Below, piece after piece: positions 2,158-64,000 of a stretch of 64,000 bases of DNA. Source of the DNA: Christensenella sp. UBA1750 (GTDB lineage Bacteria; Bacillota; Clostridia; Christensenellales; UBA1750); contig DCHO01000044.1 of the NCBI GenBank assembly GCA_002315655.1, positions 25,948 through 89,947 on the forward strand, given 5' to 3'. The position numbers and the translations under genes were made by a program. Numbering within the stretch: position 1 is the stretch's first letter; each line of letters begins with the position of its first letter. The notes beneath the pieces are model-generated. The model ran no database searches and was not told where the DNA came from. It saw only the letters and a program-made list of their open reading frames with translations.

Positions 2158-2748
2158 TTAGCCGTCGGATAATTCCTGCAGAAGTTCAAACTGCTCCTTT
2201 GTGACGATTGCTTTGAGTGTGCTCATGGCTTCATCGTATTGATTGTTGTAATGCGAAAAGGTGTCATGCCTTTGCAGACGAAATCCCAGGGAGAGGTAGA
2301 GAAAAATCGCCTTATAGCTCCAGGGCTGGGTGTGAATGTAAACGGGCGGCGTGCGAAAACGATTCATGGCGGCAATGCACAGTGCCTTGCCCAAGCCCAA
2401 CCCCTGCACCTCCTCCGCGACTACCAACCAGTGCAGGGAGGCAACCGGCTGCTCATTTCGCAGGTCAGTCCATGCGATGCAGGAACCGACGACTGCCTTT
2501 TCGGGATTTACAAGAAACAGAATGTCATCAAAGTGCGAGGTGTCCTGCAGATAGAACGAAATGAAGTAATGCTCTGCTTCTTCTGCGGAATCAAAGTCCC
2601 GAAGCGCATATTCCAGCTTCGCCCAAGCGGTTTCATAGCCGGGCTGATAGGGCACGATGGAAAAGCCGCTGGGCAGATGGACAGCCTGTGTCTTGCACAC
2701 ATCGCAGCGCAGTATCATGTTGAAAAAAGGAATGGTTCTGTCGATCAT
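2158..2748 (-). CDS. GNAT family N-acetyltransferase
   Basis: It carries the acetyl-CoA motif VAEEVQGLGLGKAL. Its start ATG (2748) overlaps the upstream stop in an ATGA arrangement, suggesting translational coupling. Confidence 0.8.
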   Translation of the reverse strand: MIDRTIPFFNMILRCDVCKTQAVHLPSGFSIVPYQPGYETAWAKLEYALRDFDSAEEAEHYFISFYLQDTSHFDDILFLVNPEKAVVGSCIAWTDLRNEQPVASLHWLVVAEEVQGLGLGKALCIAAMNRFRTPPVYIHTQPWSYKAIFLYLSLGFRLQRHDTFSHYNNQYDEAMSTLKAIVTKEQFELLQELSDG

Positions 2749-3263
2749 GGCCTGTTCCCCAATGCTATCGTGTAATATTGGCTGATTCTGCCTTTTTTGT
2801 AATTGTCGGTCTCGCACAGCAGCACGCCGCCGTTCTTCAAGATGGTTTTTGCGGAGGCGCGGTTGTCCTTGTAGCAGCCCAAAATGACCTGCTCCATGCC
2901 CTTTTCCCTACAAACCATCAGGGCATAGGCGAGCATCTGCGTGGCGTAACCTTTTCGCCGCTCCGTCGGGCGCACACCGTAGCCGATGTCGCCGAAGGCT
3001 TCGGAGAGGCTTTGTGGCAGGTTGTAGCGGAGGGAGAGCAGCCCCACCAATTTTTCCCCTTCAAAGCAGAGATAAAGCAGCGATTTTCCCCACTGGGCAT
3101 CTCCGACTTCCGCGTTTCGGTGAATCTTTTCCATCCATTGCGCAAAGTCTGTGGAAGAAAGCCCCAGACTTGCACTGATGCTGTTTTCGCCGTTGTCGTG
3201 GTGCTCCTGCACATAGTCCCGTAAAATATCCTTGTCGAAAAGCTCGGGAAGTCTGAAATTCAT
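2745..3263 (-). CDS. GNAT family N-acetyltransferase
   Basis: It has the motif GYGVRPTERRKGYATQML. I place the start at the internal ATG 3263 (MNFRLPELFD), which has an AGGAGAA RBS. The longer ORF-track N-terminus lacks an RBS. Confidence 0.8.
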   Translation of the reverse strand: MNFRLPELFDKDILRDYVQEHHDNGENSISASLGLSSTDFAQWMEKIHRNAEVGDAQWGKSLLYLCFEGEKLVGLLSLRYNLPQSLSEAFGDIGYGVRPTERRKGYATQMLAYALMVCREKGMEQVILGCYKDNRASAKTILKNGGVLLCETDNYKKGRISQYYTIALGNRP

Positions 3264-4949: not shown

Positions 4950-5095
4950 CTTTTAACCCTCCAAGCCCTTAAAAAGTGCGCTTTATGCTTTTCAAACGGC
5001 GCAAAAAGCTGTATAATGGTTCCGATTGAGACCATGCGCGGGGAACCCCTCACGCATCCATATCTATGATAACACATTACAGGAGGAAAAGTAAA

Positions 5096-62705: not shown

Positions 62706-63707
62706 TCAGCCCTCCCACTTTGCAAGGGTGTCAAAGAATGCGTGGATGTTTTCCCATTTGGCCTTCGGGGGAATGTCGCAGCCGGAGGAGGGCAGGAAGT
62801 TGCTCTCTTTGCCGCAATTTTCCATAAGCGAAACAACAGCCGCCTGCATGGATTCCACCGTGCCGCCGGCAAACTCGCCCGCCGGGTCAATGTTGCCCAT
62901 GCACAGGCAGTCCTTCGGCGCTTTGTCCAAAATTTCCCGCATATTCACGGCGTTTCCGAAATGGTACGCCGCCGCGCCCTGGGCAAAGATGCTGTCCGTT
63001 AAGTGAGGCACCGCGTTGCCGCAGTTGTGGTAGATGACGGAAAACTCTTCTTCCTGCGTGCTTTCAATGAGACGGGTGACGTAGGGCTTGGAGAACTCGT
63101 CAAAGAGCTCGGGGGAAAGCAGCCCCGCCAGCGGCTCCGCCAGCACCACGCCGTCCGCGCCGATTGCCTTGAAAGCATTGATATAATTGATGAGGAAGTC
63201 CGTGACCTTGGATAAGACTTTGTGAACCAGCTCCGGCTCATCGTAGCACTGATAAAGGATTTCGGTCACATCCAGCAACCGCCCCGCCAGCGAATAAGGG
63301 CCGATGACCCCGGCCAGAACAGGCCGGTCGGTGATGGTTTCCTTGGCCTTTCTGACGGCTTCCAAGCACAAGCCTGTGCGTCCTGCGCCCACTTCGGGGA
63401 GGACAAGCGCGTCGGCCTCGTCCTCATCGGAAACCAAAGTCCCGGTGATGGTGGGCACTTCGTTTTCCGCAAAGCGCACCGTTGCGCCGAAGGCCTCGGC
63501 TTCCACGGATAAGTCCATCAGCGTGACGGAGGCAAGAGAGGGCACTTCGTCGGCCACGATCTTCATCGCCTTGGCCTGATTGTCCGCAGAGGACACCAGC
63601 TCGTGGACGGAAATGCCCATTTTCTGCACAGCGGGGAAAGAGAGCAGGGGCAGAGCCTTCTTAACCGGCTTTGCGGCCTCTTCCCAGAGAAATGTCGAGA
63701 GATTCAT
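62706..63707 (-). CDS. MtaA/CmuA-family (uroporphyrinogen decarboxylase-like) methylcobamide methyltransferase
   Basis: It is 333 aa. It has the zinc motif VIYHNCGN (HxCG) plus the distal Cys in SSGCDIPP. The layout is typical of the URO-D family. Confidence 0.75.
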   Translation of the reverse strand: MNLSTFLWEEAAKPVKKALPLLSFPAVQKMGISVHELVSSADNQAKAMKIVADEVPSLASVTLMDLSVEAEAFGATVRFAENEVPTITGTLVSDEDEADALVLPEVGAGRTGLCLEAVRKAKETITDRPVLAGVIGPYSLAGRLLDVTEILYQCYDEPELVHKVLSKVTDFLINYINAFKAIGADGVVLAEPLAGLLSPELFDEFSKPYVTRLIESTQEEEFSVIYHNCGNAVPHLTDSIFAQGAAAYHFGNAVNMREILDKAPKDCLCMGNIDPAGEFAGGTVESMQAAVVSLMENCGKESNFLPSSGCDIPPKAKWENIHAFFDTLAKWEG

Positions 63708-63759
63708 AAAGGTCTGCCCCTTTTCATGGAGTATTTGTGTTCAGCGGAAGAACAGAACG

Positions 63760-63956
63760 GTGAAATAAATCCCAACGGGATTTGTGAAATACATTTCATT
63801 TGTGAAATAGGGCTGCGCCCTGTGAAATACGCTGTGGCGTGTGAAAGGAAAGTATCTTCACCGAATGCGAAGCATTCGATTTCACATTCCCATGGAATAT
63901 TTCACATTGACCGCCAAAGGCAGGTCAATATTTCACATCCCGCAGGGATATTTTAC
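63760..63956. repeat. Mirrored array of nine GTGAAATA / TATTTCAC octamers separated by short unique palindromes
   Basis: Forward copies start at 63760, 63784, 63802 and 63822, with a degenerate GTGAAAGG at 63841. Reverse copies lie at 63878-63885, 63898-63905 and 63929-63936, with a degenerate TATTTTAC at 63949-63956. The spacers contain hairpins: AAATCCC/GGGATTT, GGGC/GCCC, CGAATGC/GCATTCG, ATTCC/GGAAT, TTGACC/GGTCAA and ATCCC/GGGAT. Confidence 0.85.
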
Positions 63957-63960
63957 TGAT

Positions 63961-64000
63961 CTACTTGCAGAAGGCAGCGGCGGCGTCGGCAGCGGAGGCC
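63961..64000 (-). CDS. 3' end of an upstream minus-strand gene (partial)
   Basis: The reverse frame is open to the window edge and ends ...ASAADAAAAFCK with TAG (complement of 63961-63963). Its identity is unknown. Confidence 0.4.
   Translation of the reverse strand, partial: ASAADAAAAFCK

What the first reader, a model, noticed from the sequence alone, without database searches (positions are those of the whole stretch)
63760..63956. Mirrored array of nine GTGAAATA octamers interleaved with unique mini-palindromes upstream of the corrinoid methyltransferase operon
The 253-bp gap lies between the end of an upstream minus-strand gene (63961) and the MtaA-like start (63707).

The plus strand there shows five forward copies of (T)GTGAAATA, at 63760, 63784, 63802, 63822 and a degenerate copy at 63841. 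Four reverse copies TATTTCAC(A) follow, at 63878, 63898, 63929 and a degenerate copy at 63949. Spacing is mostly 18-24 bp.

Nearly every spacer is a different short GC-rich palindrome: AAATCCCaacGGGATTT, GGGCtgcGCCC, CGAATGCgaaGCATTCG, ATTCCcatGGAAT, TTGACCgccaaaggcaGGTCAA and ATCCCgcaGGGAT.

As RNA on the operon strand, the left octamers could pair with the right octamers. That would give a rod of 8-bp helices punctuated by paired hairpins, that is, stacked multi-way junctions. As DNA, it is an array of TGTGA/TCACA-type half-sites (CRP/FNR/Rex-like) on one helical face, roughly every two turns.

I know of no described riboswitch, CRISPR, REP or iteron class with this layout. Its function, whether a regulatory RNA, a protein-binding array or a recombination site, is open.
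Basis: seen in the sequence. Interest (0 to 1): 0.8.

Follow-up and report, generated by a model that had tools for sequence, protein, structure and literature searches.

The report
Stray copy of Gut-1 hairpin repeat
The mirrored octamer-and-hairpin array is real, but it is two facing copies of the already catalogued Gut-1 motif (Rfam RF01706), a repeat of unknown function that normally sits just after tRNA genes in gut Clostridia; here it has landed inside a corrinoid methyltransferase operon and is not a dedicated switch for that operon.

Summary
All six exact GTGAAATA copies in the 64-kb window lie within 63760-63936 (0.98 expected), and the spacers are palindromes.

It is not an undescribed class. 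Both halves match Rfam RF01706 (Gut-1 RNA; Weinberg 2010; function unknown) above the gathering score: 63758-63833 (+) at 57.7 bits and 63874-63958 (-) at 56.2 bits.

The mirrored layout is the family norm. Sixty-three other copies in gut and rumen Clostridia MAGs show forward GTGAAAT x3-4 followed by reverse ATTTCAC x3-4.

The usual position is tRNA-CCA, then an intrinsic terminator, then the element. An outward promoter follows in 14 of 63, and a PF05635 four-helix-bundle gene in 15 of 61.

The window copy is atypical. It lies between the corrinoid-protein gene and the URO-D/MtaA-like gene, inside the operon rather than upstream of it. It has no tRNA or terminator, and its long-range helix is lost.

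The closest relative (80% identical MtaA-like protein) lacks it. Relatives at about 70% identity carry a cobalamin riboswitch at that position.

Best reading: a displaced, partly decayed family copy that is co-transcribed and at most acts as a passive structured spacer. The family's own mechanism is unresolved, and several features point to DNA rather than to an sRNA.

The parts
63758..63833 (+). Short arm; Rfam RF01706 Gut-1 match
   Evidence: 57.7 bits against a gathering score of 50, full model 1-77. My own model R1 of the short-arm domain matches 63764-63861 (+) at 56.7 bits; canonical copies score 100-136.
63874..63958 (-). Long arm; second Rfam RF01706 Gut-1 match, facing the first
   Evidence: 56.2 bits against a gathering score of 50, full model 1-77.
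63760..63847 (+). Five forward heptamers: GTGAAAT at 63760, 63784, 63802 and 63822, and a degenerate GTGAAAG at 63841
63855..63956 (+). Five reverse heptamers: degenerate TCTTCAC at 63855, ATTTCAC at 63879, 63899 and 63930, and degenerate ATTTTAC at 63950
63767..63840 (.). Short-arm palindromic spacers: AAATCCCaacGGGATTT (63767-63783), decayed ACATTTCATTT (63791-63801), AGGGCtgcGCCCT (63809-63821), ACGCtgtgGCGT (63829-63840)
   Evidence: Family-wide, spacers are 87-93% Watson-Crick paired from the outside in, against 28% after letter shuffling.
63862..63949 (.). Long-arm palindromic spacers: CGAATGCgaaGCATTCG (63862-63878), ATTCCcatGGAAT (63886-63898), ATTGACCgccaaaggcaGGTCAAT (63906-63929), ATCCCgcaGGGAT (63937-63949)
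   Evidence: CGAAG and CGCAG loops lie on the + strand here and CGCAG on the - strand in the short arm, which is the same loop polarity as the rest of the family.
63961..64000 (-). 3' end of the corrinoid (B12-binding, 209 aa) protein gene, cut by the window edge
   Evidence: Same contig fetched as L120: PF02607/PF02310 gene at 2463-3092, then the 253-nt gap, then URO-D.
62706..63707 (-). URO-D family (MtaA-like) methyltransferase gene, the first gene after the element
   Evidence: PF01208, 179 bits. It is followed by DUF2284, RACo and three further ORFs.

Best explanation
The array is one full unit of the Gut-1 repeat family, consisting of a short arm and a long arm facing each other.

Shown for the family:
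- In gut Clostridia the unit normally lies directly after a tRNA gene and its intrinsic terminator, always in one orientation.
- It is often followed by an outward promoter and a variable gene, frequently a PF05635 four-helix-bundle gene.
- Units recur as direct repeats that flank small gene blocks.

Shown for the window copy:
- It lies in the 253-nt spacer between the corrinoid-protein gene and the URO-D/MtaA-like gene.
- It lacks the tRNA, the terminator and the promoter.
- It has lost the family's long-range helix, and one hairpin has decayed.
- The closest relative with the same gene pair does not have it.

Inferred: no promoter or strong terminator is detectable in the spacer, so the element is probably transcribed as part of the operon mRNA. 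There it would fold into a very stable branched rod of about 200 nt. The most it would do is act like a REP/BIME or ERIC element. It could slow 3'-to-5' decay of the upstream corrinoid-protein message. It could also cause some pausing or termination before mtaA, which would uncouple expression of the two genes. It does not sense a ligand and is not a dedicated regulator of this operon.
For: Family membership:
- Rfam RF01706 matches both arms above the gathering score.

Family layout:
- The same mirrored layout occurs in 63 other genomic loci, 10 in viral-collection loci and 13 in the GTGATAT subfamily.
- A co-oriented tRNA ends less than 200 nt upstream of the short arm in 31 of 55 elements and in 0 on the long-arm side. 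Fourteen tRNA identities are involved.
- In all 17 loci scanned, a Gut-1 hit follows on the tRNA strand.

Window context and decay:
- The window copy lies inside the operon.
- It scores 56.7 bits with my short-arm model, against 100-136 for canonical copies, and its X'' partner for helix P1 is missing.
- No promoter-like site and only one weak terminator-like site, on the non-operon strand, were found in 63400-64000.
- The operon-strand fold has an energy of -85.1 kcal/mol, z = -5.75, and leaves the mtaA ribosome-binding region unpaired.

Relatives:
- The relative with 80% identical MtaA (L123) has a 132-nt spacer with no heptamers and no Rfam hit.
- Relatives at about 70% identity carry a cobalamin riboswitch (RF00174, 97.8 bits) plus two extra genes at that position.
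Against: - There are no expression data, so co-transcription and any effect on mRNA are inferred.
- The copy still scores above the Rfam threshold on both arms and keeps 8 of 10 heptamers, so it is not badly decayed and could retain the family's unknown function.
- The only relative that lacks it is at 80% protein identity, so gain in this lineage cannot be told from loss in the other.
- No insertion boundaries or target duplication could be mapped.
- Three contigs from independent samples are 100% identical across the spacer, which says nothing about constraint.
Confidence: 0.55

Rival explanations
1. The Gut-1 unit works at the DNA level and still does so here. It would be a two-armed array of heptamer sites read by a family-specific protein, with spacers that extrude as hairpins. 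It would serve as a recombination-associated or insulating junction module for gene cassettes that accumulate at tRNA 3' ends.
For: - All 8-9 heptamers in an element switch together between subfamilies: GTGAAAT, GTGATAT, ATGAAAT and GTGATGT. That fits a trans-acting reader better than arm-to-arm pairing.
- The arms are inverted repeats of one asymmetric unit. Of 170 short loops, 117 are G..A in the ATTTCAC sense of each arm and 0 in the other sense. C-GNA-G loops, including GCGAAGC, are common.
- G-T wobbles are no more frequent than A-C mismatches: 15 against 23 in the short-arm hairpins and 11 against 7 in the long arm. This is unlike typical structured RNAs.
- No promoter reads into the element. 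A terminator precedes it in at least 35 of 59, and 14 of 63 have a promoter abutting the last heptamer and pointing away.
- An identical block of terminator, element, PF05635 gene and MazG-like gene lies after tRNA-Pro, after tRNA-Arg and after the end of an element encoding two large serine recombinases. The left junction is always at CCA|G.
- Direct tandem units flank small gene blocks in L007, L013, L066, L037, L092 and L360.
- The two arms reassort between elements.
Against: - No binding protein has been identified.
- An integrase lies next to the element in only 1-2 of about 69 loci.
- The mapped crossover points fall at the CCA/A-tract junction, to the left of the terminator, not inside the array.
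- The window copy has no cassette-like surroundings.
- There is no match in plasmid or phage collections.
Confidence: 0.2
2. The element acts on nascent RNA as a two-way fail-safe terminator or pause array. Polymerases that read through in either direction would meet a run of stable hairpins, each followed by AUUUCAC. In the window this would act as a partial intercistronic attenuator.
For: - On the strand where the loops are G..A, every hairpin is followed by A-UUU-CAC, and this holds for both outward directions.
- The usual position is at the end of highly transcribed tRNA operons and ahead of the next promoter.
- The reading needs no promoter of its own.
Against: - Three U residues after the stem make a weak terminator, and the scan flags only one terminator-like site in the window copy.
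- It does not explain the exact conservation of the heptamer, its concerted variation between subfamilies, or the competing X/X'/X'' helices.
Confidence: 0.12
3. As Rfam classifies it, each arm is a small RNA gene read in the GUGAAAU sense. The window would then hold two convergent sRNA genes.
For: - Rfam type is 'Gene; sRNA', and Weinberg 2010 rated it 'RNA: Y' on covariation.
- Compensatory changes in the hairpins and in helix P1 are very strong: 96% of cells paired, against 74% after shuffling, and 21 of 23 pairs show changes on both sides.
Against: - There is no promoter for either arm.
- In its home context the short arm starts 2-10 nt after a terminator's T-run.
- In the GUGAAAU sense the loops are U..C, not a known stable class.
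- There is no excess of G-U pairs.
- In the window the right arm starts 3 nt after a stop codon, and the left arm would be antisense to the operon.
Confidence: 0.08
4. One reading: the array is a cis-regulatory RNA or an operator array (CRP/FNR/Rex-like) dedicated to the corrinoid methyltransferase operon.
For: It lies next to mtaA, it is strongly structured, and the heptamer contains TGTGA.
Against: - The family is tied to tRNA 3' ends, not to corrinoid genes.
- It is absent from the closest relative.
- Relatives use a genuine cobalamin riboswitch at this position.
- It lies inside the operon, and the divergent PocR/AraC regulator and the likely promoter are upstream of the corrinoid-protein gene.
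- Half-site spacing does not fit any CRP, FNR or Rex operator.
Confidence: 0.03

Closest known systems
Gut-1 RNA motif (Rfam RF01706; Weinberg et al. 2010, PMC2864571)
   Same: Both arms match the covariance model above the gathering score. The layout is the same: four (G)UGAAAU copies separated by three hairpins of variable sequence. The hosts are uncultured gut bacteria.
   Different: The paper and Rfam describe a single 77-nt sRNA candidate, with one sentence of text and no function. They do not mention the facing second arm, the long-range helix P1, the position after a tRNA terminator, the PF05635 neighbour or the heptamer subfamilies. All of these are visible in my data, and the facing second arm, the tRNA-terminator position and the GTGATAT heptamer variant also show in the flanks of their own alignment. 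The window copy is also out of the usual context.
REP/BIME, ERIC and Correia-type intergenic repeats
   Same: These are multi-copy, imperfectly palindromic, hairpin-forming units found between genes and sometimes inside operons. They often occur as inverted pairs and can affect mRNA stability or termination when transcribed.
   Different: Those repeats keep their palindrome sequence within a genome. Gut-1 keeps only a 7-nt linker and lets each hairpin vary by compensatory change. No RAYT-type or other transposase gene was seen (only an ORF motif screen, and a few neighbour genes checked in Pfam), and no target duplication was found. Copies within one genome differ (L007 against L048).
Integron attC sites
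   Same: Both are structured, imperfectly palindromic sites whose sequence varies while short inverted core motifs and the fold are kept. Both lie at the boundary of each mobile gene cassette, with cassettes in tandem in one orientation.
   Different: Gut-1 has no GTTRRRY/RYYYAAC cores and no IntI integrase. It has many hairpins rather than one bulged stem. The junctions mapped here lie outside the array, at CCA|GAAAA. This is an analogy only.
Arm-type site arrays of tyrosine-integrase attP sites at tRNA genes (lambda, L5, HP1)
   Same: Both consist of short repeats (7-11 bp) in direct and inverted sets spread over about 200 bp next to a crossover point at the 3' end of a tRNA gene.
   Different: Known arms have no palindromic spacers, and each integrase targets one specific tRNA. 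Here 14 tRNA identities are used, and an integrase is adjacent only in L015, with L095 as a regex-only candidate.

Membership tests
Rfam RF01706 Gut-1 | Covariance-model score at or above the curated gathering score (50 bits) | tested here: met
   57.7 bits for 63758-63833 (+) and 56.2 bits for 63874-63958 (-), both covering the full model.
Rfam RF01706 Gut-1 | Four (G)UGAAAU linkers separated by three hairpins whose sequence varies but whose pairing is kept | tested here: met
   Alignment to the consensus. Family-wide covariation: 96.3% of cells paired, and 21 of 23 pairs show changes on both sides.
Rfam RF01706 Gut-1 | Found in uncultured gut bacteria | tested here: met
   The window's contig and its relatives come from metagenomes. 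The nearest named relatives are Candidatus Limiplasma, Aristaeellaceae and Clostridiales MAGs. Other copies are in gut and rumen Clostridia MAGs.
Gut-1 full unit as defined here | Position directly after a co-oriented tRNA gene and an intrinsic terminator | tested here: not met
   There is no tRNA anywhere in the window and no terminator next to the short arm. The window copy is between two protein-coding genes.
Gut-1 full unit as defined here | Long-range helix P1 (GAAAT+X pairing with X''+ATTTC) enclosing about 70 nt | tested here: not met
   Helix P1 is present in 70 of 76 copies. The window has GGAAAGTATCTTC where X'' should be.
Riboswitch or cis-regulatory leader of the corrinoid operon | A conserved aptamer at the same position in related operons, plus an expression platform | tested here: not met
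   No riboswitch family hit in the window. The element is absent from L123, and the relatives at about 70% identity carry a real cobalamin riboswitch there.
CRISPR array | Direct repeats of 23 nt or more, all in one orientation, separated by non-palindromic spacers of about 26-50 nt | tested here: not met
   The repeats are 7-9 nt, in two opposed blocks, and the spacers are 9-24-nt palindromes.
CRP/FNR/Rex-type operator | Inverted TGTGA/TCACA-type half-sites separated by a fixed 4-6 nt | tested here: not met
   The nearest inverted pair is 34-57 nt apart, and spacing within an arm varies from 16 to 31 nt.
MITE (miniature inverted-repeat transposable element) | Terminal inverted repeats, a target-site duplication, and near-identical copies within a genome | tested here: inconclusive
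   The ends are symmetric (CAGTGAAAT...ATTTCACTG-like). No duplication was found. Copies in one MAG differ in hairpin sequence (L007 against L048). Mobility of larger blocks that contain the element is shown.
Plasmid or phage iterons or origin | Identical 17-22-bp direct repeats next to a rep gene on a replicon | tested here: not met
   Only 7 nt are conserved. There is no match in 72,556 plasmid or 50,697 phage records.

The most novel reading that the evidence does not exclude
Gut-1 may not be an sRNA at all. It may be one arm of a DNA-level module of about 170-250 bp. The module would consist of a bidirectional terminator, two opposed arrays of a heptamer read by a specific protein and spaced by extrudable GNA-loop mini-hairpins, and often an outward promoter. 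It would mark the boundaries of gene cassettes that are swapped in and out at the CCA end of many different tRNA genes in gut Clostridia. That would be an attC-like or arm-site-like system with an unknown recombinase or reader. The ubiquitous PF05635 '23S rRNA intervening sequence' protein is a candidate partner.
Probability: 0.22. Interest if true: 0.8.

Novelty: new member of a known kind. Interest (0 to 1): 0.4.

Why it matters
For this window, the result removes a false lead. The array is not a new regulator of corrinoid methyltransferases. It is a copy of a catalogued repeat that happens to sit in the operon.

For the family, the work adds facts missing from the single published sentence on Gut-1:
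- It is a two-armed unit with a covarying long-range helix and a competing local helix.
- It is tied to tRNA terminators in one orientation.
- It comes in heptamer subfamilies that switch in concert.
- It is linked to PF05635 genes.
- It sits at a junction where identical gene blocks appear next to different tRNAs.

If the DNA-level reading is right, it would reclassify an Rfam 'sRNA'. It would also point to a cassette-exchange system in abundant uncultured gut bacteria, and give PF05635 proteins a first testable role outside diversity-generating retroelements.

Tried and rejected
- Other Rfam families. Only chance-level hits turned up: sR34, PyrR205 and Fluoride, all far below their gathering scores.
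- CRISPR, iteron and CRP/Rex readings. These were rejected on repeat length, orientation and spacing.
- Promoter and terminator scan of the spacer. It found nothing useful.
- Later literature on Gut-1 or RF01706. There is none beyond Weinberg 2010.
- Literature on PF05635. It covers only diversity-generating retroelements, rRNA intervening sequences and cas-catalogue contexts.
- Mapping the insertion boundaries by aligning the window spacer with that of the 80% relative. The spacers do not align.
- BLAST of a canonical unit against plasmid and phage collections. No match.
- Viral-contig scan. Ten mirrored copies were found. The six I inspected have the usual layout; five of the nine loci carry an adjacent tRNA (tRNA-Ser). 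This looks like host flank, though I did not check where the prophage boundaries lie.
- MAFFT alignment of whole units. It mis-registered subfamilies with different hairpin lengths, so I built a covariance model instead.
- Strand assignment from wobble pairs. An early count of 22 against 8 did not hold up on the model-based alignment, which gave 15 G-T against 23 A-C. I now treat the lack of bias as the result.
- Screen for integrases next to the element. Only L015 is a clear case.
- A tRNA-like cloverleaf reading of the short-arm domain. ARAGORN does not support it.
- Heptamers as -10 or -35 promoter elements, or as DnaA, PhoP or Spo0A boxes. The matches are poor; this rests on inspection only.

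Full report
**1. The observation**

On the + strand, GTGAAAT(A) starts at 63760, 63784, 63802 and 63822, with a degenerate GTGAAAG at 63841. The reverse form ATTTCAC lies at 63879, 63899 and 63930, with degenerate copies at 63855 (TCTTCAC) and 63950 (ATTTTAC).

Exact GTGAAATA occurs six times in the 64-kb window, all within 177 bp. The expected number is 0.98, and no shuffle out of 100 reached six. The spacers are short palindromes, one of which (63791-63801) has decayed.

The 253-nt gap folds far better than shuffled sequence on both strands, with z = -5.75 and -6.34.

**2. What it is**

A scan against Rfam gives two matches to RF01706, the Gut-1 RNA motif, both above the gathering score of 50 bits. 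They are 63758-63833 (+) at 57.7 bits and 63874-63958 (-) at 56.2 bits. The Gut-1 consensus is four (G)UGAAAU copies separated by three variable hairpins.

The motif was published by Weinberg et al. 2010 (PMC2864571). They reported 43 members, from human gut metagenomes only. They rated it an RNA on covariation, and neither cis-regulatory nor a riboswitch. Their entire text on it is one sentence. I found no later paper. The class is therefore known, and its function is not.

**3. The mirrored layout is the family norm**

A pattern scan of one genome per species returned 119 or more loci. Sixty-three of them have the same layout as the window. Almost all are gut or rumen MAGs labelled Clostridia, Eubacteriales, Oscillospiraceae, Acutalibacteraceae, Christensenellaceae or Ruminococcus. 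In each, GTGAAAT x3-4 is followed by ATTTCAC x3-4, never the reverse order, over 150-190 bp.

The unit is asymmetric. The short arm has hairpins of 9-13 nt and corresponds to the Rfam model. The long arm has four heptamers spaced 24-25 nt apart with hairpins of 17-18 nt. It scores only 50-57 bits with the Rfam model, or falls below threshold.

The flanks of Weinberg's own alignment already show the second arm and a GTGATAT variant.

**4. Family structure**

The spacers are 87-93% Watson-Crick paired from the outside in, against 28% after shuffling.

I built a covariance model of the short-arm domain and aligned 80 copies.
- 96.3% of cells are paired, against 73.7% after shuffling.
- 21 of 23 pairs show changes on both sides.
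- Sliding the partner columns drops pairing to 29-53%.
- One caveat: the alignment was fitted to the model's own structure.

The alignment supports a long-range helix, P1. It joins the 5' GAAAT+X to a central X''+ATTTC and encloses a constant 69-74 nt. X occurs in six covarying classes.

X is also complementary to an adjacent X'. The local pairing holds in 73 of 76 copies, the distal pairing in 70 of 76, and both in 70 of 76. The two helices are therefore mutually exclusive.

**5. Polarity and concerted heptamers**

Of 170 loops of 3-4 nt, 117 are G..A (GNA or GNNA, mostly closed by a C:G pair) when each arm is read in its ATTTCAC sense. None is G..A in the GTGAAAT sense. C-GNA-G occurs in 37 of 66 short-arm spacers and 34 of 127 long-arm spacers, and GCGAAGC is frequent. 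From memory, GCGAAGC is the classic very stable DNA mini-hairpin. The favoured loop sense therefore lies on opposite strands for the two arms, and it is opposite to the Rfam strand.

G-T wobbles are rare, about 1-2% of pairs, and no more common than A-C mismatches. This is unusual for a functional RNA.

Whole elements switch all of their heptamers together. This is seen in a GTGATAT subfamily (13 metagenomic copies with the same layout), an ATGAAAT form (L360:3248-3560) and a GTGATGT form (L111:1399-1504). Concerted change of 8-9 short sites, alongside freely covarying hairpins, points to a trans-acting reader of the heptamer rather than to mere arm-to-arm pairing. This step is inference.

**6. 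Family context**

- With the short arm placed first, 31 of 55 elements with enough flank have a co-oriented tRNA gene ending less than 200 nt upstream.
- None has a tRNA on the long-arm side. Fourteen tRNA identities are involved.
- Between the tRNA and the element lies CCA-GAAAAAAGC-hairpin-GCTTTTTTCA, a bidirectional intrinsic terminator. It has a perfect stem in 35 of 59.
- In 14 of 63 copies, a TTGAAA-17-TATAAT promoter abuts the last heptamer and points away. Thirteen of these are TG-extended. A shuffled control gave 1 in 63.
- In 15 of 61 copies, the gene that starts 16-60 nt after the element is a PF05635 '23S rRNA intervening sequence' four-helix-bundle protein (85 bits). Two weaker fragments also occur. 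None is found on the tRNA side.
- The same linkage holds in the GTGATAT subfamily.
- That 115-aa protein has more than 8000 clusters at 86-94% identity, mostly on contigs shorter than 2 kb.

**7. Evidence of mobility**

One identical block consists of CCA|GAAAAGAAAC-terminator, the element, a promoter, a PF05635 gene and a MazG-like gene. It lies in three places:
- after tRNA-Pro in L354;
- after tRNA-Arg in L360, where a 1020-bp cassette sits in front of a resident terminator plus an ATGAAAT-type element;
- after the end of an element with two large serine recombinases in L353.

Units occur as direct tandem repeats around small gene blocks in L007, L013, L066, L037, L092 and L197.

Short and long arms reassort between elements: the correlation between short-arm and long-arm identity is r = 0.32. 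L077, for example, combines the short arm of L053 with the long arm of L116.

The unit is absent from plasmid and phage collections.

**8. The window copy**

The same contig, fetched as L120, shows the gene order:
- a PocR/AraC regulator, transcribed divergently;
- the corrinoid (B12-binding) protein gene;
- the 253-nt gap that holds the element;
- URO-D/MtaA-like, DUF2284, RACo and three further ORFs.

The element is therefore intercistronic. It has no tRNA, terminator or promoter. It scores 56.7 bits with my model against 100-136 for canonical copies. It lacks X''/P1, and one hairpin is broken. Its loop polarity still follows the family.

The nearest relative, at 80% MtaA identity, has a 132-nt spacer with no heptamers and no Rfam hit. 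Relatives at about 70% identity carry a cobalamin riboswitch (97.8 bits) and two extra genes there. Three contigs from independent samples are identical across the spacer and are uninformative.

**9. Verdict**

The most likely account of this locus is a displaced, partly decayed Gut-1 unit that is carried along in the operon mRNA. At most it would have a REP-like structural effect.

The family mechanism remains open. I rank the readings in this order:
1. a DNA-level module read by a heptamer-specific protein;
2. a two-way terminator or pause array acting on nascent RNA;
3. the sRNA reading.

None of these was tested experimentally here.

Noticed in passing
L124:1778-1952 (+); same in L125-L129: Relatives at about 70% identity carry a cobalamin riboswitch (RF00174, 97.8 bits), a DUF4430 gene and a 168-aa gene between the corrinoid-protein gene and the URO-D gene. 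The window has the Gut-1 unit at that position.
   Followed up: partly
L360:3248-3560; L111:1399-1504: Further heptamer subfamilies (ATGAAAT/ATTTCAT and GTGATGT) show the same layout of terminator, X hairpin, helix P1 and long arm. The L360 ATGAAAT copy falls below the Rfam gathering score; L111:1399-1504 also gave no Rfam hit. The family is therefore wider than RF01706 detects.
   Followed up: partly
L353:2050-2228; also L013 about 4980-5010, L078 about 330-360, and L231 next to its element: The end of an element encoding two large serine recombinases carries TGCACCCC(C) four times, spaced about 22 bp apart. It terminates in TATCAAAATTAGAGTCATTTG|CCA, exactly where the terminator-plus-Gut-1 block begins. 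A similar end motif precedes Gut-1 units in three other species.
   Followed up: partly
L353-L362:2501-3177: A PF05635 four-helix-bundle gene (115 aa) overlaps a 110-aa MazG-like gene. The pair is extremely abundant, with more than 8000 clusters at about 90% identity, and lies mostly on very short contigs. This suggests multiple copies per genome or recent spread.
   Followed up: partly
L027:1201-1657 (-): Three short-arm domains lie in tandem: 1201-1300, 1458-1561 and 1562-1657.
   Followed up: no
Long arms of L025, L043, L044, L052, L086, L098 and L105: Each long-arm hairpin slot has a small pool of alternative sequences that reassort independently between elements. The short-arm domain, by contrast, is inherited as a unit.
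   Followed up: partly
L015:about 1030-1870, 297 nt after the element: In this locus a tyrosine recombinase gene (PF00589, 101.7 bits) is the first gene after the Gut-1 unit that follows tRNA-Glu. It is the only clear adjacent integrase among about 69 loci.
   Followed up: no
L123:674-805: The spacer of the 80% relative contains unrelated hairpins, GTCCTGTTTCGGCttgCCGAAACAGGAC and TTGCgaaGCAA. The second resembles a Gut-1 hairpin core, so it could be a relic.
   Followed up: no
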